43,905 nucleotides of DNA from Acidobacteriota bacterium (GCA_022567475.1 JADFGZ010000002.1:1-43905); one strand, 5' to 3'; shown: positions 8,250 to 31,518, counted from the first letter of the stretch. Program-made: numbers and translations. Notes: a model not told the origin generated them from the sequence alone.

Positions 8250-9248
8250 ATGGAACAGCTTAAAGATATGTCAACAGGATTAAAGAAGATTTTCGGAGAA
8301 TCGGAGCGGATTGTCGTGCTTGCCGCCGACCACAGATATTTCGGCGTCGTCGCCGGCCTGGAAAAACCCGGCGAGGTGCTTTCCCCGCTCCTCGATTATG
8401 TGGACGTGCTGATGACCGATCCCGGCGTTCTGCGCCATGCGTTCAAAGGCAGAGTGAACCTGCCGGTGATGCTGCGCGCCTCCGGATGCTCCACCACCAT
8501 GAACGTCCCCGTGCCCGGCTATCTCCAGGAGCCAGCCAAGCTCGCCTACCAGCAACGCACCGGCAAGGATTTCGACAAGGCCTACCAGGAATACAAAGCA
8601 AAAATAGACTCCGGAACGGCCACGGGCGAAGATTTTGACGAGTTCCAGCTTCTCGACAGCGTCGTGAACGTTCCCGACACCATCGCCAATGAAAGGCTGA
8701 TCCTGCAGGCCGAAGACGTGCAAAAAGAAGGGGGGGCGGGCGCCGCCGTCTCGGTTTACTTGAAGACGGAACACCAGTCGCAGACGCTCGACAATCTGGC
8801 CAGCATGTCGCGCGCGGCCCGGAAGATCGATCTTCCCATACTCGGCGTTGTGGCCGTGGGAACCGCGCTGGGATATCTGGAGAAAGACTCCGACTTCCTG
8901 ACGCGGGCCGGAGCCATCCTGGTGGCGCACGGCGCCGACATCATCAAGACCTATAATTGCGGAAAGGGGTTTGAGCGGGTGATCGAGGCCGCCGGCGTTC
9001 CCGTCATCGTGGCAGGCGGCAAGATGCCCAAGGGCGTGGATGAAACCAAAGACAGCCTGGAGCTGGCCTACGACTCCATCCAGAAAGGCGCCAAGGGGAT
9101 CGACTTCGGGCGGCGCGTTTGGAGACACAAGCAGCCGGTAGCCATGATACGGGCGTTGCGGGCGGTGATCCATGACGGCATGCAACCCAAGGAAGCCTAT
9201 CAATTGTTTCAGGAGTTGAAGAGGAGTAAAAAGGGGAGCAAAGGATGA
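8250..9248 (+). CDS. LsrF/DhnA-type class I aldolase/thiolase with a ~55-aa internal insertion
   Basis: LAADHRYF, PVMLRASG, GADIIKTY (catalytic Lys), VPVIVAGG and GIDFGR match the LsrF pattern; the N-terminal extension in the ORF track overlaps the previous gene and is ignored. Confidence 0.8.
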   Translation: MEQLKDMSTGLKKIFGESERIVVLAADHRYFGVVAGLEKPGEVLSPLLDYVDVLMTDPGVLRHAFKGRVNLPVMLRASGCSTTMNVPVPGYLQEPAKLAYQQRTGKDFDKAYQEYKAKIDSGTATGEDFDEFQLLDSVVNVPDTIANERLILQAEDVQKEGGAGAAVSVYLKTEHQSQTLDNLASMSRAARKIDLPILGVVAVGTALGYLEKDSDFLTRAGAILVAHGADIIKTYNCGKGFERVIEAAGVPVIVAGGKMPKGVDETKDSLELAYDSIQKGAKGIDFGRRVWRHKQPVAMIRALRAVIHDGMQPKEAYQLFQELKRSKKGSKG

Positions 9249-10276
9249 CCATTCCTGAGACGATGAAGCTCGGCCTGTACTTCAGCAACGAGGACGTGCA
9301 GGTGGAGCAAAGGCCGGTGCCCGAAATCGGCCAGAACGAGGTCCTGGTGGAGGTCGCCGCATGCGGCATCTGCGGCAGCGACACCATGCGGTGGTATCGC
9401 GAGCCGGGCACGCGGGAGAAAGGCGGCATCAATACGGGGCATGAAATCGCAGGCCGCATCGTTCAGGCGGGCGAGTCGGTCCGCAATTTCAAAACCGGCG
9501 ACCGGGTCGTCGTCTCCCACCATTTCCCCTGCCTGCAATGCGTCCCGTGCCAGGACGGAAACGAGACGGCATGCGAGGAAATGCACCGGAAGCACATCGA
9601 GCCGGGCGGCTTTTCGCAATACGTCCGGCTCTTTGATCCATGCATCGAGAAAGGATTGTTTGCTCTGCCCGACAGCATGACCTTCGAGCAGGGCTCCTTT
9701 GTCGAGCCGCTCGCCTGCGTTGTGCGCGGCGTGCGAAAGACCGCTCCGATTGAATCCCGCACCGTGCTGGTGCTGGGAAGCGGCCTGGCGGGCTTGCTCC
9801 ACATCAAGCTGGCCCGCGCGCTCGGCGCCGGCAGAATTTACGCCGTCGATACCAACCAAAAACGGCTGGAGGCTGCCTCACAAAACGGCGCGGATGAAAT
9901 GATTTGCGCTACGGACAAACTGCCGCGCGCCGACCGCGTTTTTGTCTGCACCGGATCGCAAAAGGCCGCAGAAAGCGCGCTCGATTGCGTGAACCTCGGC
10001 GGGCACATCCTGTTTTTTGCCGCCGACGGCCCGGATAAAAAACTGCTGATCCCGCTGACCAAATTCTGGACCACGCAGCCTTCCCTCAGCTTCAGCTATG
10101 GAGCCGCGCCGCGCGACATGAAGGAAGCGATGGAGCTGATTCGCAGCGGAAAGGTCACCGTCGATGGCTTGGTCACACACCGGTTCGGAATCGATCAAAT
10201 CGCCCAGGCGTTCGACCTGGTGGCGAATCCCAGGGATAATTCTCTGAAGGTGATTATCGAACCGAACCGGCGGTGA
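9245..10276 (+). CDS. Zn-dependent alcohol/polyol dehydrogenase (MDR family)
   Basis: CGICGSD, GHE, structural Zn motif CxxCxxCx7C, EPLACV and GSGLAG; ATGA overlap with the upstream gene. Confidence 0.92.
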   Translation: MTIPETMKLGLYFSNEDVQVEQRPVPEIGQNEVLVEVAACGICGSDTMRWYREPGTREKGGINTGHEIAGRIVQAGESVRNFKTGDRVVVSHHFPCLQCVPCQDGNETACEEMHRKHIEPGGFSQYVRLFDPCIEKGLFALPDSMTFEQGSFVEPLACVVRGVRKTAPIESRTVLVLGSGLAGLLHIKLARALGAGRIYAVDTNQKRLEAASQNGADEMICATDKLPRADRVFVCTGSQKAAESALDCVNLGGHILFFAADGPDKKLLIPLTKFWTTQPSLSFSYGAAPRDMKEAMELIRSGKVTVDGLVTHRFGIDQIAQAFDLVANPRDNSLKVIIEPNRR

Positions 10277-22267: not shown

Positions 22268-25096
22268 ATGAACCGGTTCTTCCCCCATCGGCAATGGCTG
22301 CTTTCGCGGGCTGTCCTGTTTTTGATTCTGCTGCTGAGTCTCCAGGCCGGCGGTGCCCTGGCCCAGACTGAATCCGGAGAAGTGATTGAGGACGTTCTCT
22401 TCCGGGGCAACCGGCGTGTGCCCACCGCCACGATGCGCGTCCGCATCTTCACCAAACCCGGCGATCCCTACAATGTCAACGCTCTCCGCCGGGACTTCAT
22501 GGCTTTGTACAACACCGGTTTTTTTGACGACATCGTGCTCCGGGTCGAGGACGGGGCCGAGGGAAAGATCGTCATCTTCGAGGTCACGGAGAAACCCATG
22601 ATCCGCAGCATCGAATACAAGGGCAACAACTCCGTGACGCACTCGGACATCCTGGACCGTTTCAAAGAACGGAGGGTCGGGCTGACCGTAGAGAGCCGCT
22701 TTGACCCCACCCGCATCAAGCGCGCCGAAGTTGTCCTGAAACAACTGCTGGCGGAACGAGGCCGCCAGTACGCCACCGTCACAGTCGATACGAAAACCAT
22801 TCCGCCTTCCTCGGTGGCTTTGACGTTCACCATCGACGAAGGGCCCAAGGTGAAAATCGGCAGGATCGATTTTGAGGGCAATACGGTGCTTTCCCGCCGG
22901 AAGCTGGTCCGCGCCATGAGGAACTCCCGGCCCATCGGAATTCCCCACAGCTTCATCCTGGAAAGCCTGTTCAGCAAAACATACGACCGGAACAAGCTGG
23001 ATGAGGATATGGAAGGGCTGCGGGCGGCCTATCAAAACGAAGGCTACTTCCGGGTTCTGGTCAACGATCCGATGGTGGAAACCCGTGAAACGCCGGCAAA
23101 ACGGGGCGTGCCCATCCCCGTTCTCAACATGCTGCCGATTCCGGGCATCAAGCGAAGCAAACCAGGACGCAAGGTGGATATCACCGTTCCGCTGGTCGAG
23201 GGAGAGCGCTACACGCTGGGAGAGATGACCTTCGAGGGCGTGGAAGTGTTCACCCAACCGGAGAGGGTGCTCCGCCCGATGTTCACCATGGAACAAGGGG
23301 ATATGTTTGACGTTTCCAAAATTCGCGAAGGCCTGGAAAGCATGCGCAAGCTCTACGGGGAGTTCGGTTACATCAACTTCGTGGCCAGTCCCGAAACTTT
23401 GATTGATGACGTGAACCGCGAGATTGACATGGTGTTCAACGTCGAGGAGGACAAGCAATTCCTGGTGCGCCGGATCGACTTTACGGGAAACACCACCACC
23501 CGCGACAAGGTCATCCGGAGGGAATTGATGCTGACCGAAGGTTCCATGTTCAACAGCCGTCTGTGGGAGCTGAGCCTTTTGCGGCTGAATCAGCTGGACT
23601 ACTTTGAAAAGCTGGAGCCGGCCGATTCGGACGTGCAGCCCGACAACCGCACCGGAACCGTGGACCTTCACCTGGCCGTCAAGGAGAAGGGAAAGAACGC
23701 CATCGGTTTTACCGGAGGCGTGAGCGGGCTGTCGGGAAGCTTTGTGGGTTTCAGCTACCAGACCAACAACTTTATGGGGCTGGGTGAAACCCTTACTTTT
23801 AACGCGCAGTTTGGCAGCTTGGAGCGCAATCTGCTGCTGGGGCTCACCCACCCCTATGCATTCGACCGTCCTCTCCAGGTCGGCTTCACGCTATTCTCCC
23901 GCCGCTTTAACTTCGACGAAGCCCAGCAGGCGTCTATCTTCTCCGGCCAGGACGTACGGCCCATCTTTGCCTTGCTGGGGAACGATAACATCCAGAGGTA
24001 TCGCCAGACCAGCGTCGGCTTCACCTCCTTCGCCAGCTATCCGCTGCGCAACCGTTTTTCCCGCGTGGGACTGACCTACAGCTACGACTCCAGCAGCATC
24101 ACCACCTTCAGCGAGGCTTCCCGGCGGCTGTTTGAGGATATCAACTTCAATGGAATAGGCGGGGCCAATTCGTTGGAGGGGATTCGCACCAGCAAAATTA
24201 TCCCCACCTTTACCTACAACACGGTCGATCACCCGATAACCCCGTCGCGCGGCAAGAGTTTCTTTGCCAGCCTGGAGCTGGCGGGACTCGGCGGCAACGT
24301 CCGCACGTACCGGCCTACCGTCGACTTCAAATGGTTTCGTCCCATGTCGGAGGGATTCCGGCCACGGGTCTTCGCCATGCACCTGCTCGGTTCCACTATG
24401 AGCGGTTATGGAGGGCGCGTGCTTCCGCCCTTTACGCGCTTCTATACCGGCGGGGAAACCGACATTCGCGGCTTTGACTTTTTTACGATCAGCCCGGTCG
24501 CCTTCATTCCCGACATCGCCGCAGTGCCTGTCCTCAACACCGATGGCACGCCACGAACCACCACCAGCTTGGATCAACTGGGCCTGGAAAACCAGGCGAC
24601 GCAAACCATGCTGGTCCCCGTGAACCGGACGACCTTCCCCGGCGGCGACACCAAACTCGTTGCGAACTTCGAGTACCGCATCCCGTTGTTCGGCCCGGTC
24701 TCGCTGGCTCCCTTTCTGGACGCTGGCTATAACATCGCCTGGAGGCGGTCGCAATTGTCGCTGACCGACCGGCGACTGGCAGAACTGCAAAGCCAGTTCC
24801 CCAGCACCGATTTCAAACAACGATTGGACCTGGCGGCGGACACCAACAATCAGTTGAGAGCCTCGACGGGGATCGAACTGCAGGTGATCCTGCCGGTTGT
24901 GAACGCCCCCTTCCGAATCTACTGGGCCCGCAATATATCCCGGCTCACAACGTTTATATTCCCCACGCCCCTGGTGGAGCGCGCCTTCTTCCCCAATGAA
25001 GCCAGCTTCACCAACGCTGTGAACGCTTTCGGCACGCCGCTTCCTTTTAACGAACCTAAAAGCACCTTCCGCTTTACCGTCGGCCGCACCTTCTAG
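22268..25096 (+). CDS. bamA: Outer membrane protein assembly factor BamA
   Basis: Signal peptide, POTRA repeats (GNTTTRDKVIRRE), NFMGLGE, IRGF loop motif and C-terminal Phe. Confidence 0.95.
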   Translation: MNRFFPHRQWLLSRAVLFLILLLSLQAGGALAQTESGEVIEDVLFRGNRRVPTATMRVRIFTKPGDPYNVNALRRDFMALYNTGFFDDIVLRVEDGAEGKIVIFEVTEKPMIRSIEYKGNNSVTHSDILDRFKERRVGLTVESRFDPTRIKRAEVVLKQLLAERGRQYATVTVDTKTIPPSSVALTFTIDEGPKVKIGRIDFEGNTVLSRRKLVRAMRNSRPIGIPHSFILESLFSKTYDRNKLDEDMEGLRAAYQNEGYFRVLVNDPMVETRETPAKRGVPIPVLNMLPIPGIKRSKPGRKVDITVPLVEGERYTLGEMTFEGVEVFTQPERVLRPMFTMEQGDMFDVSKIREGLESMRKLYGEFGYINFVASPETLIDDVNREIDMVFNVEEDKQFLVRRIDFTGNTTTRDKVIRRELMLTEGSMFNSRLWELSLLRLNQLDYFEKLEPADSDVQPDNRTGTVDLHLAVKEKGKNAIGFTGGVSGLSGSFVGFSYQTNNFMGLGETLTFNAQFGSLERNLLLGLTHPYAFDRPLQVGFTLFSRRFNFDEAQQASIFSGQDVRPIFALLGNDNIQRYRQTSVGFTSFASYPLRNRFSRVGLTYSYDSSSITTFSEASRRLFEDINFNGIGGANSLEGIRTSKIIPTFTYNTVDHPITPSRGKSFFASLELAGLGGNVRTYRPTVDFKWFRPMSEGFRPRVFAMHLLGSTMSGYGGRVLPPFTRFYTGGETDIRGFDFFTISPVAFIPDIAAVPVLNTDGTPRTTTSLDQLGLENQATQTMLVPVNRTTFPGGDTKLVANFEYRIPLFGPVSLAPFLDAGYNIAWRRSQLSLTDRRLAELQSQFPSTDFKQRLDLAADTNNQLRASTGIELQVILPVVNAPFRIYWARNISRLTTFIFPTPLVERAFFPNEASFTNAVNAFGTPLPFNEPKSTFRFTVGRTF

Positions 25097-25154
25097 ATCG
25101 TTTTCAGGGTTGGTGTAAAGATAGGTTGTTGGTGAATCCATCCGAGCCGCGAGA

Positions 25155-25275
25155 GCCTGCCCCGAGCCAAGTCGAGGGGTGAGGGAGCGGACAATCCAGC
25201 CTTGCTTGCCCGCTTGGGGTTTGGTGTCCGCTTGCTGATCCCTCGGCTTTTCCCTCGGCTTCGCTCGGGACAGGC
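25155..25275. repeat. REP-like inverted repeat pair forming a long hairpin between convergent genes
   Basis: GCCTGCCCCGAGCCAAGTCGAGGG (25155-25178) vs CCCTCGGCTTCGCTCGGGACAGGC (25252-25275), 21/24 inverted match; inner pair AGCGGACA/TGTCCGCT. Confidence 0.7.
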
Positions 25276-25290
25276 GCGCGCGGCCCTAGA

Positions 25291-26298
25291 CTATACAGCG
25301 CTATGACGTTGCTTCTGGCTGGATTGGTTTGGTCCGTTGGCCGCCGTCTGAATCTGCACCAGACCCTTGGCAATCGTATGTTGGACACCCTCGGGCAGGT
25401 CCTGTTGCCGGTGAGGGGAACAGGAAAGATCCGCGTAGTCATCTCCCACGGGACAGACCTCCATGCAGCGCATGCAACCCGTAAAAGCCCCCTGCCGCAA
25501 GATGGCCATGTTATGCCAAATCTTGCGGGTGGTGGAGCTGAAGATTTTTCCTTGCAGTTGCTCGGCGGTCTGGGACTGCAACAGCGCTTTGAGATGCTCC
25601 ACATAGAAAAAAACTCCGGCAGGCTGTGAGCTGCGGGCGCAGGCGCGTCTATCGAGTCCCCGGTATTGCGAGAGCGGCGCACCCTGGAGGGCCTCGCGTG
25701 GAATAGCTTGCTCCGGACAGATCGCAGCACAGCGCCCGCATTCTTCCAGACCCGGGCAAAGCTCTTCTTTTACCGGTTCATCTGCCAGTTCATTCAGCAG
25801 GTCATCCGTTCCGGGCTTCCAGTCGGTCATCATCCCGGCCAGGAAAACGCGCGGGCCGAACTGCGGCGTCAAAAGCATCTGGTTGAGCCCGAGCGTGCCC
25901 AGTCCCGCCTCCACCGCAGCCAGCCGTAAAAAAGTGGAGCTCTGGCCGGCCGGCGTGTTGTCCTCCGGGAAAGTGGTTTTGAAGTCCAACAGCAGGGAAG
26001 GAACCGTCACCGCCAGGTAGTCCGCTCCCTCCAGCCAATAGCCCAACTCGCCCACGGCTTCCTCCAGGCTGCGATGAATGAGTCCCGCATTCTGTTGCTG
26101 GTGGATGGTGCGCGACCGCGCGCCCGCAACACCTCGGGGAATTTTCTTGCCGAAAACCAGAAACGTATCCAGGAACTCGCTCATGCGCGAAGGCCGCATC
26201 TGCGCCGGCAGCTTGTGATCGAGCCTTTGGCGGGTGGTGACCCCGGTCAAATCAATCCCCAGCTCCCGGGCCTTCGTGACCAGCTCCTGCCGCTCCAC
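25291..26298 (-). CDS. QueG/RdhA-like cobalamin- and 2x[4Fe-4S]-dependent reductase, paralog 3
   Basis: AAVEAGLGTLG...TPQFGPRVFL...TD; CPGLEECGRCAAICP; C-X54-CMRCMEVCP. Confidence 0.8.
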   Translation of the reverse strand: MERQELVTKARELGIDLTGVTTRQRLDHKLPAQMRPSRMSEFLDTFLVFGKKIPRGVAGARSRTIHQQQNAGLIHRSLEEAVGELGYWLEGADYLAVTVPSLLLDFKTTFPEDNTPAGQSSTFLRLAAVEAGLGTLGLNQMLLTPQFGPRVFLAGMMTDWKPGTDDLLNELADEPVKEELCPGLEECGRCAAICPEQAIPREALQGAPLSQYRGLDRRACARSSQPAGVFFYVEHLKALLQSQTAEQLQGKIFSSTTRKIWHNMAILRQGAFTGCMRCMEVCPVGDDYADLSCSPHRQQDLPEGVQHTIAKGLVQIQTAANGPNQSSQKQRHSAV

Positions 26299-26301
26299 GC
26301 G

Positions 26302-27333
26302 TTACTCCTTTCCCGGCTGGGGGACCGGTTTCTGGCGGGTTGCTGAAAACTCCAGCACGTCCACAAAATCCTTGTCCCGTTCGTAATTCGATTGGCGCTC
26401 GGCGGGCGGGCCCAGGTAGATCATCGTGACCAGCTTCTCCGTGAACTTCCGGCGTATTTGTCCCGGAGGAATGTCAAACTTTCGGTACGGAATTTTGATG
26501 ATCTTGCGAAAGTCCTTTGCGCCCGGCGGGCAGACGTAAAAACACTCGAAGCAAGCGGCGAAGGCGCCCTCCTTGTTGTTGACCGACTGCCAGAAGTCTT
26601 GCCAATACGTGTTGGCCATCATCTTCTCGATCTCCACCGGCGGATCAGCCTTGATGAGCTTCTCGATGTTCAGATAGAGCGGCTTGATCCCGATGCGTTC
26701 CGCTCCCGAGGCGCAATTGCGCTTGTTGAGGTTGCGGTATTCGGTGATGTGCGCGCCGCGCCGGGCTTCCAGCGGGATAGCCTGGGTGGGACAGATCACG
26801 GCACAGCGGCCGCAACTCATCCCCGGACAGAGATGCTTGTCGGGCGGCAACGGCGAATCAGGCGGCAACTCCAGATCGGTCATCACCACCCCGATGTAAA
26901 CCCGCGGACCGTAATCGGGGGTCAAGAAATTCAACTCCAAACCCACCGTCCCAATCCCGGCCTGTTCGGCCACCCACTTGAAGTCGAGCGGCCCGGCAGG
27001 GCTTCGTTGCAACTCCATATCGGCCGACTCCGGCGGAATGGGAATCCCCACATATCCCCGGCTCTCCAGCCACTCCACCAGGTCAAACGAAATCCGTTCG
27101 ATGTGGTCGATGGCCAGGTGGGAATTCATGGATTGCAAGGGCAGGTCCCGCGTGGCAAACGATCCGGTCAGCATGTGCTTGACAAAAACCAGCAGGCTGC
27201 CCATGCCTTCGCAAACCATAGAAGGTTTCTGGAGGTTCGGCACCAACTTCTCATAGGCTTCCGCCGAAACCACTCCCAGCGAATCCGCGCCGATTGCAGC
27301 GGCATACTGTTTCAATTCTTCCTTGAGTTCCAC
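26302..27333 (-). CDS. QueG/RdhA-like cobalamin- and 2x[4Fe-4S]-dependent reductase, paralog 2
   Basis: KWVAEQAGIGTVG...TPDYGPRVYI...TD; CPGMSCGRCAVICP; C-X53-CFECFYVCP. Confidence 0.8.
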   Translation of the reverse strand: MELKEELKQYAAAIGADSLGVVSAEAYEKLVPNLQKPSMVCEGMGSLLVFVKHMLTGSFATRDLPLQSMNSHLAIDHIERISFDLVEWLESRGYVGIPIPPESADMELQRSPAGPLDFKWVAEQAGIGTVGLELNFLTPDYGPRVYIGVVMTDLELPPDSPLPPDKHLCPGMSCGRCAVICPTQAIPLEARRGAHITEYRNLNKRNCASGAERIGIKPLYLNIEKLIKADPPVEIEKMMANTYWQDFWQSVNNKEGAFAACFECFYVCPPGAKDFRKIIKIPYRKFDIPPGQIRRKFTEKLVTMIYLGPPAERQSNYERDKDFVDVLEFSATRQKPVPQPGKE

Positions 27334-27351
27334 TGAGTTCCCTTCCCCGCG

Positions 27352-28329
27352 CTATTGTTTGCGGCTTTTCTGAGACGGTGCATGCTCGATCTGGACGAAG
27401 CCGTCTGCCACGGAGCGGCTTACCCCGCCGGGCAAATCCTGCTGGCGGTGAGGAGACCGCTGCACCCGTTCGTAGTCCTCGCCCGCCGGGCAGACCTGAA
27501 CGCATTCGGCGCACCCCGTGAAAGCGCCTTCCTTCACCATGATCATCGTTTGCCACAGCTCCCCGGTGGTCCGCTGTTTGACGGCGTTCCACAGAGCCTC
27601 GGCGCCCCCGGTTCGCTTTCCAAAAACCTGCTCCAGGTGCGAGAGGAAGGTGGACGCTCCGTAAGGTTGAGCGCTCCGCGCACAGGCCGTGGCGTCCAGC
27701 CGGCGGACCTGGGCCAGCGATGCCCCGAGCGGGGCCCGGCGCGGGATAGCATCCTCCGGACAAACAGCCGCGCAGCGGCCACACTCTTCAAGGCCCGGAC
27801 ACAATTCCTGGTCGAGAGGAGCATCCGGCTCCCATTCCTGGTCTGCCAGGACGCCGCCCAGGAACATTCGCGGCCCATATTCGGGCGTCAATACCATTTG
27901 GTTGAGCCCCCATGTCCCCATCCCGGAGGCCACGGCAGCGGCGCGCAGGACCCGTGAGCCTTGCCCCGCCGGGCAAAGGCCGGTGCTGTCGTCCTGATCG
28001 AAATCGATGCTCAGCGAGGAGAGGACCATAGCCCTGGCCCCCCGCCTCTCCAGATGATCCACCAGACGCATGCAGCTCTCGTCGATTCGCTTGAGGATTC
28101 TTCCGGCCCAAAACTGTTTGGTGCCCAGGTGGCGCGCCCACCCAATTCCCGCAGGTGACTTCATGGCCACGACAACCAGCGTGCGCAACTCTTCGGAAAT
28201 GCGGGAAGGATGCTGGGACGCCGGCAGTTCCTCAGCCAGGCTGGCGACCGAGCAAACACGGATTAACGGAAACCCCAGGCTTCCCGCAACCTGCTTCAAC
28301 TGTTCCTTGCTGAGTACCGTCTCCGGCAC
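27352..28329 (-). CDS. QueG/RdhA-like cobalamin- and 2x[4Fe-4S]-dependent reductase, paralog 1
   Basis: AAVASGMGTWG...TPEYGPRMFL...AD; CPGLEECGRCAAVCP; C-X56-CAECVQVCP. Confidence 0.8.
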   Translation of the reverse strand: MPETVLSKEQLKQVAGSLGFPLIRVCSVASLAEELPASQHPSRISEELRTLVVVAMKSPAGIGWARHLGTKQFWAGRILKRIDESCMRLVDHLERRGARAMVLSSLSIDFDQDDSTGLCPAGQGSRVLRAAAVASGMGTWGLNQMVLTPEYGPRMFLGGVLADQEWEPDAPLDQELCPGLEECGRCAAVCPEDAIPRRAPLGASLAQVRRLDATACARSAQPYGASTFLSHLEQVFGKRTGGAEALWNAVKQRTTGELWQTMIMVKEGAFTGCAECVQVCPAGEDYERVQRSPHRQQDLPGGVSRSVADGFVQIEHAPSQKSRKQ

Positions 28330-28414
28330 AATTCCCCTGCTGAATCCCTATGGCATCGCTGCGCTGTTCTGAGAGAAAACCGAATAAGGCGCGCTGCGGC
28401 CTTTTCAATTTTCT

Positions 28415-28448
28415 ATTCTAGCATCGCCGCGTAGCAATACATATGCCG
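28415..28448 (-). promoter_or_regulatory. Candidate promoter(s) of the triple reductase operon: sigma54 -24/-12 site and/or extended -10
   Basis: Minus strand CGGCATATGTATTGCT (GG-N10-GC, 28433-28448) and TGCTAGAAT (28415-28423). Confidence 0.4.
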
Positions 28449-28602
28449 GCGCACGCGCGGACGGTGTGTTCAGTCCACGGGGAAGACCTGCCCAGATGAA
28501 CGATGAACGCGGCGACGGTCGCTCTGGCCTGCCGAGATCACTGCTTGTTTATGCAAAATATGCAAGGAGGACGCTACACCGGGGCGCTCAACACGAATTG
28601 TA

Positions 28603-31518
<2,916 letters not shown>

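What the first reader, a model, noticed from the sequence alone, without database searches (positions are those of the whole stretch)
25291..28329. Operon of three tandem QueG/reductive-dehalogenase-like paralogs: candidate new cobalamin-dependent reductase system
Seen: three co-oriented 325-343 aa ORFs spaced 18 and 3 bp apart. Each carries AxxAG(L/I/M)GxxG...TPx(Y/F)GPR...D and eight Cys in two ferredoxin-type motifs. Paralogs 1 and 3 share CPGLEECGRCAA, ACARSxQP, GAFTGC and SPHRQQDLP; paralog 2 is more diverged. No twin-arginine signal, no RdhB-like membrane anchor gene and no fused reductase domain are visible. Known: this architecture belongs to the QueG/RdhA cobalamin superfamily; QueG is normally single-copy with a VDTxP motif that is absent here, and respiratory RdhA has a TAT signal and rdhB. 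Inference: a cytoplasmic B12-dependent reductase of unknown substrate (epoxide, organohalide or another C-X bond), working as a heteromer or as a set of specificities.
Basis: partly seen in the sequence, partly recalled or inferred. Interest (0 to 1): 0.8.

Follow-up and report, generated by a model that had tools for sequence, protein, structure and literature searches.

The report
Conserved three-subunit QueG/RdhA-like reductase cassette
Three neighbouring genes encode diverged relatives of vitamin-B12/iron-sulfur reductases that travel together as a fixed three-gene cassette across many bacterial phyla and probably form one three-part enzyme whose substrate is still unknown.

Summary
Three co-oriented minus-strand ORFs (325, 343 and 335 aa; gaps of 18 and 3 bp) each carry the QueG/RdhA core motif and eight conserved Cys. 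They are not QueG: they score 29-48 bits against a cut-off of 200, D-Y-H aligns to R-x-L, there is no HEAT domain, and a true queG lies elsewhere in the genome. They are not respiratory RdhA either: 24-43 bits against 160, no TAT signal, no rdhB. The par1 model matches QueG, PceA and NpRdhA about equally (Z 16.7-17.6).

This is not a local duplication. The par1-par2-par3 order recurs in 27 of 55 fetched loci from seven phyla. par2 and par3 each form a clade (par1 is unresolved next to par3), with the same three subgroups in each set. Sister lineages have doublets, fused doublets and 727-813 aa multi-module proteins. A complex model supports par2 binding both par1 and par3 (score 0.93, best control 0.41).

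My best reading is a cytoplasmic heterotrimeric corrinoid/[4Fe-4S] reductase. Acyl- or aryl-CoA ligases lie in 16 of 55 loci, and 4-hydroxybenzoyl-CoA-reductase-like genes in three (a fourth has another Mo-hydroxylase type). That points, weakly, to an organic (aromatic) acid or its CoA thioester as substrate. Corrinoid binding and chemistry are untested. I found no description in print.

The parts
27352..28329 (-). par1: first gene, 325 aa, QueG/RdhA-superfamily subunit of the 'PAGQGS-loop' type
   Evidence: ORF. NCBIfam RDH 43.4 bits and QueG 41.8 bits, both far below cut-off. AF2 model pLDDT 94.1, pTM 0.92. Z 17.6/17.5/16.9 to PceA, QueG and NpRdhA. Orthologues up to 96% identical.
26302..27333 (-). 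par2: second gene, 343 aa, the divergent subunit with its own invariant residues and a conserved C-terminal extension
   Evidence: ORF. QueG 47.6 bits and RDH 41.0 bits. Own clade at 100*. Orthologues 46-69% identical. A 6-residue deletion after D109 and group-specific invariants. AF2 pLDDT 90.9. In the complex model it contacts both other chains.
25291..26298 (-). par3: third gene, 335 aa, sister type of par1
   Evidence: ORF. QueG 28.8 bits and RDH 24.4 bits. Own clade at 99*. Orthologues 41-59% identical.
27868..27936 (-). par1 core motif A-x-x-S-G-M-G...TPEYGPR (residues 132-154). This is the stretch that aligns to the cobalamin-domain core of QueG and PceA. The par2 equivalent is 26902-26970 and the par3 equivalent is 25849-25917.
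   Evidence: phmmer and hmmsearch alignments to 5d08, 5d6s, 8q4h and 4uqu. HHalign. Motif positions.
27757..27801 (-). par1 first Fe-S motif Cx5CxxCxxxCP (C177, C183, C186, C190). par2: 26788-26829. par3: 25714-25758.
   Evidence: All Cys kept in 27 of 27 orthologues per group. Aligned to the first Cys motif of QueG and PceA.
27487..27513 (-). par1 second Fe-S motif CxxCxxxCP (C273, C276, C280), completed by the isolated C216. par2: 26527-26553. par3: 25450-25476.
   Evidence: Aligned to QueG's second motif. QueG's ligand scheme is given in PMC4646009, section 23.
28330..28602 (-). 273-bp upstream intergenic region, presumably holding the promoter. No riboswitch was found.
   Evidence: Coordinates, sequence. 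0 Rfam matches in the window. 0 sigma-70-like sites.
25130..25290 (.). 3' boundary: a dispersed palindromic repeat between the convergent par3 and bamA, possibly acting as a terminator
   Evidence: 56 matches in the own genome. Hairpin of -89.5 kcal/mol, z -5.31. Excess depth and loose ends in DNA runs.

Best explanation
The three genes encode the subunits of one cytoplasmic enzyme. It is a heterotrimer of three anciently diverged paralogues of the class III cobalamin enzymes (the QueG / reductive dehalogenase / CblC fold).

Each subunit keeps a nitroreductase-like core followed by a ferredoxin insert, with eight Cys for two [4Fe-4S] clusters. That gives up to six clusters and, by inference, up to three base-off corrinoids per complex. 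By analogy with QueG and RdhA, electrons from an external low-potential donor would pass through the two clusters to the cobalt. The reduced cobalt would then remove a substituent from the substrate by breaking a C-O or C-X bond.

par1 and par3 share one active-site loop (P-[AG]-G-Q-G-S). par2 has a different, equally conserved set of polar residues, so the subunits are specialised and not redundant. The model's contacts suggest a head-to-tail ring.

The substrate is most likely an organic, probably aromatic, carboxylic acid or its CoA thioester. In other genomes the cassette or its two-gene sister sits beside aryl- or acyl-CoA ligases, and in three loci beside 4-hydroxybenzoyl-CoA-reductase-like genes.

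Shown here: homology, fold, the Cys ligands, conservation of the cassette as a unit, and its distinction from QueG and respiratory RdhA. Inferred: the complex, corrinoid binding, the electron path and the substrate class.
For: SUPERFAMILY. Sequence matches to QueG and PceA chains at E 7e-7 to 7e-6, and 1.7e-13 with the family profile. HHalign against 16 true QueGs gives probability 99.3%, E 1.5e-20, over 215 columns.

FOLD. For the par1 model (pLDDT 94.1), one search gives:
- 8q4h_A: Z 17.6, rmsd 3.3, 235 aligned
- 5d6s_A (QueG): Z 17.5, rmsd 3.2, 207 aligned
- 6zxu_A (NpRdhA): Z 16.9, rmsd 3.0, 226 aligned
- 4ur3_A (PceA): Z 16.7, rmsd 3.3, 223 aligned
- MMACHC: Z 10.4
- FMN nitroreductases: about 5

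CYS LIGANDS. All eight are kept in 27 of 27 orthologues of each paralogue. They map one-to-one onto QueG's two-cluster scheme.

CASSETTE. Ordered par1-par2-par3 in 27 of 55 loci, plus 4 with split or ambiguous hits. The record titles and tree labels name Acidobacteriota, Myxococcota, Binatota, Chloroflexota, Gemmatimonadota, Pseudomonadota and Hydrogenedentota.

TREE (quick IQ-TREE, 87 rows). Triplet clade 97*, par2 100*, par3 99*, par1+par3 99*. The same three subgroups appear in each sub-tree.

COUPLING. Stop and start share coordinates in other loci, for example L016 and L017.

FUSIONS. P0123 (670 aa) and P0128 (678 aa) join a dblA-type N-half to a dblB-type C-half, in gene order. 26 proteins of 727-813 aa carry an N-terminal and a C-terminal module.

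COMPLEX MODEL. Score 0.93, best of 3 controls 0.41. The mark was reached by 58 of 80 solved complexes and 2 of 110 mismatched pairs. Runs agree in at least 92% of their contacts, and the partner's pLDDT is at least 85. My own alignments and three chains were used, so the calibration holds only roughly. par2 touches par1 (59-81, 243-264, 288-294) and par3 (38-43, 79-107, 157-159, 228-241, 263-271).

SPECIALISED SUBUNITS. Group-specific invariants. par2 also folds confidently (pLDDT 90.9).

CORRINOID SUPPLY IS PLAUSIBLE. The genome has QueG (363.9 bits), MetH (1681.4 bits) and CbiB (192.6 bits).

CONTEXT.
- PaaK-like ligase in 7 and another AMP-binding ligase in 9 of 55 loci (named).
- Directly downstream in L016: 4-HBCR-like alpha (824.6 bits against 544 for the next family), beta and gamma. 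L023 shows gamma and the start of alpha. L044 alpha scores 711.5 bits.
- 4HBT thioesterase in L024, enoyl-CoA hydratase in 4 loci, ferredoxin in 3.
- The doublet locus L064 reads MarR, dblA, dblB, luciferase-like monooxygenase, CoA ligase.
Against: - Corrinoid binding is not shown. No tool here could place a corrinoid or give model coordinates.
- QueG's D-Y-H, which holds the Tyr reported as shared by all class III enzymes (PMC4646009), aligns to R-x-L. I found no conserved Tyr at that place.
- The column aligned to QueG's catalytic Asp is Gly in the window's own par1.
- TM-scores to solved members are only 0.40-0.48.
- The context is partial. 39 of 55 loci show no ligase with my queries, including all of the roughly 14 Multivorans/Holophagales-type loci.
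- In this window the neighbours are a histidine kinase and bamA.
- The 4-HBCR-like orthologue (>=56% identity) is in only 9 of 27 triplet genomes. It is also in 13 of 40 relatives that lack the triplet. In this genome it is unlinked, on contig C103.
- PceA is a solved homodimer, so part of the complex score may come from likeness to solved structures. The control keeping par1 and par2 still scored 0.41.
- The ring closure (par3 to par1) was not reported by the tool.
- The tree is the quick version, and par1 is not resolved as one clade.
- Expression is not shown.
Confidence: 0.55

Rival explanations
1. Catabolic reductive dehalogenase. The trimer removes halogens from halogenated aromatic acids such as brominated or chlorinated 4-hydroxybenzoates or phenylacetates. 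The product is then activated by the CoA ligase and dehydroxylated by the 4-HBCR-like enzyme. This is a specific version of the main reading.
For: The fold is as close to NpRdhA and PceA as to QueG (Z 16.7-17.6). The RDH model is the best NCBIfam hit for par1 (43.4 bits). 6zy1 is NpRdhA bound to 3-bromo-4-hydroxybenzoic acid (title), and removing the halogen from such an acid would leave 4-hydroxybenzoate, which feeds a 4-HBCR route. 4-HBCR-like genes lie directly downstream in L016 and L023, and beside the cassette in L044. The locus recurs in marine-sediment metagenomes: 18 runs with at least half its words, about 9 studies.
Against: RDH scores of 24-43 bits are far below the 160 cut-off, and Pfam's dehalogenase family did not appear even at E<=1. 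No proton-donor Tyr was identified. The link to 4-HBCR-like genes is loose. Nothing here speaks to halogens directly.
Confidence: 0.15
2. Epoxide or other C-O reductase working on CoA thioesters. This would be QueG-like chemistry applied to ring epoxides such as epoxyphenylacetyl-CoA or epoxybenzoyl-CoA, or a reductive dehydroxylation or demethoxylation of an aryl-CoA.
For: QueG is the best sequence and profile match. PaaK-like ligases lie directly upstream in L016, L019 and L023, among others. A PaaA-like gene is in L034 (60.7 bits against a 280 cut-off). An enoyl-CoA hydratase is in 4 loci.
Against: QueG's D-Y-H is not conserved, and the Asp-aligned column is variable. The PaaA-like match is weak and seen in one locus. 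No ring-oxygenase set accompanies the cassette.
Confidence: 0.12
3. Three independent isoenzymes with different substrate ranges that happen to be kept in one operon, without forming a complex.
For: Organohalide respirers are reported to carry several rdhA genes (passage of PMC12219181). Each paralogue keeps all eight Cys and its own conserved residues.
Against: Fixed gene order in 27 of 55 loci over seven phyla. The same subgroups in all three sub-trees. Overlapping stops and starts. Fused two-module and 727-813 aa multi-module relatives. Complex model 0.93 against a best control of 0.41 (58 of 80 solved and 2 of 110 mismatched pairs reach the mark). No listed locus holds par2 alone.
Confidence: 0.1
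4. The family has lost the corrinoid. It would be an Fe-S protein, possibly with a flavin or another cofactor, that only carries electrons, for example to the neighbouring Mo-hydroxylase or monooxygenase, or that uses different chemistry.
For: Corrinoid binding is untested. D-Y-H and its Tyr are missing at the aligned place. The core is a nitroreductase-type fold, which binds FMN in other families (rows 35-50). Public sources name the proteins 'ferredoxin'.
Against: Z is about 17 to corrinoid enzymes, about 10 to CblC and about 5 to FMN nitroreductases. The stretch best conserved with QueG and PceA is the core of the cobalamin domain, not only the Fe-S motifs. About 170 residues of strongly conserved core per subunit would be an odd cost for a plain electron carrier.
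Confidence: 0.12
5. Extra QueG copies acting on tRNA, or a CblC-like enzyme that processes corrinoids themselves.
For: Some sources auto-annotate relatives as 'epoxyqueuosine reductase QueG'. The CblC fold match has Z 10.4.
Against: A true QueG exists in this genome (363.9 bits) and in 29 of 31 genomes of the relatives set, this genome included. The triplet was not found in the 40 relatives searched. There is no HEAT domain, no D-Y-H, and scores are 29-48 bits against 200. No cobalamin-pathway gene was seen beside the cassette in the loci annotated.
Confidence: 0.04

Closest known systems
Epoxyqueuosine reductase QueG (TIGR00276; PDB 5d08, 5d6s)
   Same: The N-terminal 'l-k-e-l-A-x-e-l-G-x-D-l-v-G' start, the nitroreductase-like core with the A-x-x-A-G-x-G...T-P-e-x-G stretch, and the same eight-Cys two-cluster topology. 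It is cytoplasmic. It is the best sequence and profile match, with Z 17.5, rmsd 3.2, 207 aligned.
   Different: Scores of 29-48 bits against a 200 cut-off. D-Y-H aligns to R-x-L, and there is a 5-residue 'tPAGQ' insertion at the catalytic loop. No C-terminal HEAT repeat domain. The first Cys spacing is x5 or x4 where QueG has x2. QueG is a monomer (PMC4646009) and a single gene, whereas this is a three-gene cassette. This genome has its own QueG.
Respiratory reductive dehalogenase RdhA/PceA (TIGR02486; PDB 4uqu, 8q4h)
   Same: The same core and Fe-S insert: Z 17.6 (8q4h_A, rmsd 3.3, 235 aligned) and 16.7 (4ur3_A, rmsd 3.3, 223 aligned). It is oligomeric: PceA is drawn as a dimer in PMC4646009 (Fig. 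7 legend).
   Different: 24-43 bits against a 160 cut-off. No TAT signal, no rdhB, about 100-150 residues shorter, and hetero- not homo-oligomeric.
Catabolic reductive dehalogenase NpRdhA/BhbA (PDB 4ras, 6zy1)
   Same: Cytoplasmic and acting on an aromatic acid. It contains a second, vestigial cobalamin-binding core in one chain (passage of PMC12219181), so more than one module of this fold packs together. Z 16.9, rmsd 3.0, 226 aligned.
   Different: NpRdhA is a single chain of about 700 aa, in some members fused to an NAD(P)H reductase domain. Here there are three separate full modules, each with its own eight Cys and no reductase domain.
CblC / MMACHC B12-processing enzyme (PDB 3sc0, 9mrs)
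   Same: The same nitroreductase-like corrinoid-binding core: Z 10.4, rmsd 4.0, 177 aligned.
   Different: CblC has no ferredoxin insert, and the corrinoid is its substrate, not its cofactor (PMC4646009 discussion).

Membership tests
QueG (epoxyqueuosine reductase, TIGR00276) | Score at or above the curated cut-off of the equivalog model (200 bits) | tested here: not met
   41.8, 47.6 and 28.8 bits, matching only about 70 residues. The genome's true QueG scores 363.9 bits.
QueG (epoxyqueuosine reductase, TIGR00276) | Strictly conserved D-Y-H active-site motif (PMC4646009) | tested here: not met
   D-Y-H is invariant in 16 of 16 true QueGs. HHalign places it over the family's R-x-L. The string is absent from all three proteins.
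QueG (epoxyqueuosine reductase, TIGR00276) | Catalytic Asp in the V-D-T-x-P loop | tested here: inconclusive
   VDT.P is absent. HHalign aligns the Asp to family position 117: D/E in 25 of 27 par1 and 22 of 27 par2, but Tyr in 16 of 27 par3. In the window it reads Gly in par1, Glu in par2 and Asp in par3. An ungapped extension of the HMMER alignment would put it on a Gly instead. The loop alignment is uncertain.
QueG (epoxyqueuosine reductase, TIGR00276) | C-terminal HEAT-repeat domain (residues 258-372 in the S. thermophilus enzyme) | tested here: not met
   Structural alignment ends at chain residue 250-254. HHalign covers only columns 1-243 of 334. The proteins end about 45-60 residues after the last Cys.
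Respiratory reductive dehalogenase RdhA (TIGR02486) | Score at or above the curated cut-off (160.35 bits) | tested here: not met
   43.4, 41.0 and 24.4 bits. No Pfam dehalogenase family at E<=1.
Respiratory reductive dehalogenase RdhA (TIGR02486) | Twin-arginine signal peptide | tested here: not met
   No RR in the first 40 residues and no [ST]RRxF[LIVM]. The fold starts at residue 8 or residue 3.
Respiratory reductive dehalogenase RdhA (TIGR02486) | Adjacent rdhB membrane-anchor gene | tested here: not met
   The flanks are a hybrid histidine kinase and bamA. No small membrane gene lies within or between the three ORFs.
Catabolic RdhA (NpRdhA/BhbA type) | One long chain with a vestigial second cobalamin core, often with a C-terminal NAD(P)H reductase domain | tested here: not met
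   325-343 aa with only Fer4-type Pfam families. The match covers only chain residues 340-648 of NpRdhA.
Class III cobalamin enzymes (QueG/RdhA superfamily) | Nitroreductase-like core followed by a ferredoxin insert | tested here: met
   Z 16.7-17.6 to QueG, PceA and NpRdhA over 207-235 residues at rmsd 3.0-3.3. HHalign probability 99.3%.
Class III cobalamin enzymes (QueG/RdhA superfamily) | Eight Cys ligating two [4Fe-4S] clusters in the crossed 3+1 / 1+3 scheme | tested here: met
   C177, C183, C186, C190, C216, C273, C276 and C280 are conserved in all three proteins and in 27 of 27 orthologues per group. Both motifs align to those of QueG. The scheme is in PMC4646009, section 23. The clusters themselves are inferred.
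Class III cobalamin enzymes (QueG/RdhA superfamily) | Base-off corrinoid bound in the core | not testable with these tools
Only the conservation of the core stretch and the genome's use of corrinoids bear on it.
Class III cobalamin enzymes (QueG/RdhA superfamily) | Tyr above the corrin, shared by QueG, PceA and NpRdhA (PMC4646009) | tested here: inconclusive
   The QueG Tyr column aligns to a non-aromatic, variable column. Group-specific invariant Tyr residues exist elsewhere (par2 Y156, Y254 and Y278; par3 Y91), but their place in space could not be checked.

The most novel reading that the evidence does not exclude
A fourth functional branch of the class III B12 enzymes. It would be a ring-shaped heterotrimer with three corrinoid sites and six [4Fe-4S] clusters, in which two kinds of active site (par1/par3 type and par2 type) cooperate. 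The chemistry would be something not yet known for cobalamin, on aryl-CoA or aromatic-acid substrates. One example would be an ATP-independent removal of ring substituents that feeds the benzoyl-CoA pathway. The cassette appears to spread between phyla as a mobile three-gene unit and is common in marine sediments.
Probability: 0.12. Interest if true: 0.9.

Novelty: new variant of a known kind. Interest (0 to 1): 0.68.

Why it matters
Three activities of class III cobalamin enzymes come up in what I read: tRNA epoxide reduction, respiratory dehalogenation and catabolic dehalogenation. All three come from single catalytic polypeptides. A widespread cassette of three co-evolving paralogues would add a new quaternary design to this enzyme class, and probably a new substrate class.

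The family holds 73 representatives at E<=1e-30. Its members are annotated only as 'hypothetical', 'ferredoxin' or, wrongly, 'QueG'. The mislabel matters for genome surveys that count QueG or RdhA-like genes to infer B12 dependence or dehalogenation potential.

If the aromatic-acid/CoA link holds, the enzyme would be a missing step in peripheral aromatic catabolism in sediments and soils. It would also be a candidate for bioremediation chemistry.

The case is directly testable: three small soluble proteins, with clear predictions for co-purification, cobalt content and substrate screening.

Tried and rejected
- Cobalamin riboswitch or any RNA family: 0 Rfam matches in the window.
- Promoter scan: 0 sigma-70-like sites. 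7 terminator-like sites against 4.4 expected, which is uninformative.
- Earlier scan notes: nothing for this sequence.
- Literature: six searches found no description of a three-gene QueG/RdhA-like cassette. The 'novel clade' of PMC12219181 has N-terminal TM helices, TAT signals and rdhB, so it is a different group (passages).
- ESM Atlas for par2: only 'hypothetical protein', 'ferredoxin' or 'epoxyqueuosine reductase family protein' clusters.
- Expression: no RNA holder listed. Two runs labelled metatranscriptomic (RNA is the tool's guess) gave short contigs over parts of par3 and par1, and one contig bridging the par1/par2 junction (27066-27543), 95-98% alike. I do not count this as evidence of transcription.
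- Obligate partnership with the 4-HBCR-like enzyme: rejected. The orthologue is in 9 of 27 triplet genomes and in 13 of 40 relatives without the triplet.
- A universally conserved neighbour: none. The largest non-family clusters cover 10 or fewer of 56 sources.
- Recent vertical origin: the triplet was not found in the 2 same-genus, 11 same-family and 27 same-class genomes searched. The only three matches were 33-35% identical hits in 459-486 aa frames.
- Mapping QueG's catalytic Asp by ungapped extension of the HMMER alignment gave a Gly. HHalign gave a mostly acidic column. I left this as inconclusive.
- My greedy ORF caller produced some spurious long ORFs in these GC-rich loci (for example a 624-aa frame across par1 and par2 of L015). 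Neighbour calls therefore rest on Pfam/NCBIfam hits and tblastn only.
- Two rows were dropped from the par2 alignment (L027, L037) and one from the par3 alignment (L043), because my coordinates ran through a stop. L038 and L047 were left out of the three alignments by choice.

Full report
1. THE OBSERVATION

One search lists three minus-strand ORFs at the stated coordinates:
- par1, 27352-28329, 325 aa
- par2, 26302-27333, 343 aa
- par3, 25291-26298, 335 aa

The gaps between them are 18 and 3 bp. All three start with GTG behind an SD-like sequence, and par3's AAGGAG overlaps the end of par2. par1 and par3 are 48% identical; par1 and par2 are 33% identical.

The first motif is Cx5CxxCxxxCP (Cx4 in par2), not the canonical ferredoxin spacing. 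There is no twin-arginine motif and no TM-grade hydrophobic segment; the highest Kyte-Doolittle 19-mer mean is 1.57.

Pfam finds only Fer4-type families. The flanking genes are a hybrid histidine kinase (CHASE-HisKA-HATPase, two receiver domains, Hpt; 28603-31518, same strand) and a convergent bamA (22268-25096).

2. WHAT FAMILY IT IS

NCBIfam gives QueG (TIGR00276) 28.8-47.6 bits against a cut-off of 200, and RDH (TIGR02486) 24.4-43.4 bits against 160.35. In both cases the match covers only about 70 residues: the core stretch and the first Fe-S motif.

Against PDB sequences, par1 matches QueG (5d08, 5d6s; E about 7e-7) and PceA (8q4h, 4uqu; E 4e-6 to 7e-6). A family profile raises this to 1.7e-13.

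The AF2 model of par1 is confident: pLDDT 94.1, pTM 0.92, from 91 sequences. Foldseek puts QueG first (E 4e-8, TM 0.48), then PceA and NpRdhA. VIA-align gives a tie at the top:

| Chain | Enzyme | Z | rmsd | aligned |
|---|---|---|---|---|
| 8q4h_A | PceA | 17.6 | 3.3 | 235 |
| 5d6s_A | QueG | 17.5 | 3.2 | 207 |
| 6zxu_A | NpRdhA | 16.9 | 3.0 | 226 |
| 4ur3_A | PceA | 16.7 | 3.3 | 223 |
| 9mrs_B | MMACHC/CblC | 10.4 | 4.0 | 177 |
| several | FMN nitroreductases | about 5 | | |

par2 also folds confidently (pLDDT 90.9). So the proteins belong to the class III cobalamin-enzyme fold, about equally far from each characterised branch.

3. NOT QueG AND NOT RESPIRATORY RdhA

The genome has a true QueG on contig C26 (363.9 bits). 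QueG is over the cut-off in 29 of 31 genomes of the relatives set, this genome included.

I aligned 16 of those QueGs. D-Y-H and the D-T-x-P of the 'VDT.P' loop are invariant in them. HHalign of the triplet family against them gives probability 99.3% and E 1.5e-20 over 215 columns, but covers only QueG columns 1-243 of 334. The structural match likewise ends at QueG residue 250-254. The HEAT-repeat domain (residues 258-372 in PMC4646009, section 23) therefore has no counterpart.

D-Y-H aligns to R-x-L. The catalytic Asp aligns to family position 117, next to a 5-residue insertion ('tPAGQ'). That column is D/E in 25 of 27 par1 and 22 of 27 par2 orthologues, and Tyr in 16 of 27 par3. In the window it reads Gly, Glu and Asp for par1, par2 and par3. 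An ungapped reading of the HMMER alignment would put the Asp on a Gly instead. I fixed the chain-to-native offset at 27 from the paper's Cys184-Gly-Asp-Cys187. I leave this feature as inconclusive.

The respiratory RdhA features are all absent: model score, TAT signal and rdhB.

4. NOT A LOCAL DUPLICATION: AN OLD, MOBILE CASSETTE

Of the 120 best homologues listed out of 176, 95 are par1-like, 25 are par3-like and none is par2-like.

A scan of one genome per species returned 55 loci. They break down as follows:
- The ordered triplet par1-par2-par3 is in 27 loci.
- A three-gene arrangement with split or ambiguous hits is in 4 more (L020, L034, L039, L041).
- A two-gene form is in 16.
- Single or cut copies are in 8.

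The triplet loci come from records labelled Acidobacteriota (several orders), Myxococcota/'Deltaproteobacteria', Binatota, Chloroflexota, Gemmatimonadota, Pseudomonadota (Burkholderiales) and Hydrogenedentota.

The triplet was not found in the 40 relatives of the window's genome that I searched: 2 same genus, 11 same family, 27 same class.

I built a quick maximum-likelihood tree (87 rows). I kept 18 triplets out of 27 to reduce near-duplicates, and added 10 doublets, 7 representatives, two split fusions and two outgroup rows. The result:
- The triplet clade has support 97*, par2 100*, par3 99*, and par1+par3 99*. par1 itself is not resolved as one clade.
- The same three subgroups recur inside each sub-tree.
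- Records labelled Myxococcota (L016) and Binatota (L023) are almost identical in all three genes.

So the cassette is inherited and transferred as a unit. The true QueG sits on a branch of length 3.18. The careful tree search did not finish, so these supports are SH-aLRT values from the short search.

5. EVIDENCE THAT THE THREE PROTEINS WORK TOGETHER

(a) The gene order is fixed, and in many loci the stop of one gene shares coordinates with the start of the next.

(b) All eight Cys are kept in 27 of 27 orthologues of every paralogue, while each group has its own invariant residues. par1 and par3 share P-[AG]-G-Q-G-S, R129 and Q221-P222. par2 has a 6-residue deletion after D109 and its own invariant set: H57, W92, E106, D127, K129, W130, E133, R222, Y254, F274-E275 and Y278 (par1 numbering). 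It also has a conserved C-terminal extension. par2 is therefore specialised and not decaying.

(c) The exhaustive representative search found 4426 proteins at E<=1e-3, 952 at E<=1e-10 and 73 at E<=1e-30. Among the 147 newly listed ones:
- P0123 (670 aa) and P0128 (678 aa) hold two full modules. Their N-halves group with the upstream doublet gene and their C-halves with the downstream one.
- 26 proteins of 727-813 aa hold a clear N-terminal and a clear C-terminal module.
- A weak middle match appears in 2 of these by my HMM (P0160, P0202), and a Pfam QueG_DUF1730 match lies near residue 327 in both examined (P0154, P0160). A third, degenerate module is possible but not shown.

(d) The complex model (par1, par3 and par2 residues 1-330, with par2 as the partner) scored 0.93 against a best control of 0.41; two partner-replaced controls scored 0.00. 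The mark was reached by 58 of 80 solved complexes and 2 of 110 mismatched pairs. Runs agree in at least 92% of contacts, and the partner's pLDDT is at least 85. My own alignments and three chains were used, so the calibration holds only roughly.

In that model par2 touches both partners. par1 contributes residues 59-81, 243-264 and 288-294. par3 contributes 38-43, 79-107, 157-159, 228-241 and 263-271. par2 uses both kinds of surface. This head-to-tail pattern suggests a ring, but the par3-par1 contact was not reported. PceA is a solved homodimer, so part of the score may reflect likeness to known structures.

6. WHAT IT MAY ACT ON

No neighbour is universal. With tblastn of named neighbours over all 55 loci I found:
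- a PaaK-like ligase in 7 loci
- another AMP-binding ligase in 9 loci
- an enoyl-CoA hydratase in 4 loci
- a ferredoxin in 3 loci
- Liv-type ABC ATPases in 13 loci, mostly doublet loci
- none of these in the roughly 14 Multivorans/Holophagales-type loci

The PaaK-like genes lie directly upstream and divergent in L016, L019 and L023. They score 226-257 bits against a cut-off of 646, so they are relatives of phenylacetate-CoA ligase, not PaaK itself.

Directly downstream of par3 in L016 lie the three subunits of a molybdenum hydroxylase whose best model is 4-hydroxybenzoyl-CoA reductase:
- alpha: 824.6 bits, against 544 for xanthine dehydrogenase XdhA; cut-off 994.55
- beta: 260 bits; cut-off 404.55
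- gamma: 179 bits, narrowly second to a glyceraldehyde-dehydrogenase gamma model (185.5 bits)

L023 shows gamma and the start of alpha before its contig ends. L044 has an alpha at 711.5 bits. L034's hydroxylase is of another type. L024 has a 4HBT thioesterase just downstream. The doublet locus L064 reads MarR, dblA, dblB, luciferase-like monooxygenase, CoA ligase.

The window's own genome has an orthologue of the L016 alpha (59% identity) and beta (51%) at the edge of contig C103, plus three PaaK-like genes, all unlinked to the triplet.

The link is loose. The alpha orthologue (>=56% identity) is in 9 of 27 triplet genomes, and in 13 of 40 relatives without the triplet. I read this as a shared metabolic setting, carboxylic and probably aromatic acids handled as CoA thioesters, and not as a fixed partnership.

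7. COFACTOR

Corrinoid binding could not be tested. What speaks for it:
- the rank order of fold matches: corrinoid enzymes well above FMN nitroreductases
- the stretch best conserved with QueG and PceA is the core of the cobalamin domain
- the genome uses and handles corrinoids: QueG, MetH at 1681.4 bits and CbiB at 192.6 bits

What speaks against it: the missing D-Y-H and its Tyr at the aligned place.

8. OCCURRENCE AND EXPRESSION

18 DNA runs from about 9 studies, mostly labelled marine sediment, hold at least half of the locus's sampled words. No RNA holder is on record, and the laid 'RNA?' contigs are not evidence of transcription.

9. COMPARISON WITH WHAT IS KNOWN, AND NOVELTY

It works like a class III cobalamin/[4Fe-4S] reductase. 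It is not a member of QueG, respiratory RdhA or the NpRdhA type; the membership table gives the tests.

Six full-text searches found no description of it. Public names are 'hypothetical protein', 'ferredoxin' or an automatic 'epoxyqueuosine reductase QueG'. The 'novel clade' of PMC12219181 is a different, membrane-anchored group (passages); that paper's supplements were not opened.

I rate it a new variant of a known kind: a new, widespread, three-subunit branch of a known enzyme class.

10. VERDICT

My confidence in each level of the reading:

| Claim | Confidence |
|---|---|
| Conserved three-gene cassette of this superfamily | above 0.9 |
| Heteromeric complex | about 0.7 |
| Corrinoid dependence | about 0.65 |
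| Aromatic or organic acid, or its CoA ester, as substrate | about 0.35 |
| The combined statement | 0.55 |

Noticed in passing
window 25130-25290: The intergenic stretch between bamA and par3 is a dispersed palindromic repeat. It has 56 matches across many contigs of the own genome. It folds into a long hairpin of -89.5 kcal/mol, z -5.31. DNA runs show 7- to 20-fold excess depth there and many loose ends. It looks REP/MITE-like and may act as a two-way terminator.
   Followed up: partly
window 28603-31518 (-): Directly upstream of the cassette, on the same strand, lies a 971-aa hybrid histidine kinase (CHASE, HisKA, HATPase, two receiver domains, Hpt). No kinase is conserved beside the cassette in other loci, so a regulatory link is unsupported.
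   Followed up: partly
G000:C103:34-3533 (L070): The own genome has 4-hydroxybenzoyl-CoA-reductase-like alpha (795.7 bits) and beta genes at the very edge of a contig. The gamma subunit and whatever precedes it are cut off. They are orthologous (59% and 51%) to the genes that follow the cassette in L016.
   Followed up: partly
G000:C420:4781-5341 and G000:C387:683-1006 (L004, L007, L009): There are two further QueG-like genes in the genome: a 456-aa frame (50.5 bits to the QueG model) and a 323-aa frame (36.9 bits). Neither is QueG, and neither is part of the triplet. Relatives G022, G030 and G038 have 459-486 aa frames of similar kind.
   Followed up: no
P0154, P0160 and 24 more (727-813 aa): This is a distant group of long proteins with an N-terminal and a C-terminal module of this fold. 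The middle part of about 250-300 residues shows weak matches to a third module in a few cases. One source names one of them 'epoxyqueuosine reductase QueG'.
   Followed up: partly
L047:7124-9276 and L047:12733-14105: In a Bryobacterales record, par2 and par3 are separated by about 2.1 kb, unlike every other triplet. IS21 IstB-like and Mu-transposase-like genes lie downstream. This may be an insertion into the cassette.
   Followed up: no
L020:8966-9672: In one Candidatus Multivorans record, par2 appears as two adjacent hits (8966-9307 and 9310-9672). That suggests a frameshift, a stop or an assembly error.
   Followed up: no
L044:5984-7231: In a Rhodospirillales record with a two-gene form next to 4-HBCR-like genes, the next gene is of the URO-D family. 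From memory, not from a call, that family also includes corrinoid-dependent methyltransferases. It is seen in one locus only.
   Followed up: no
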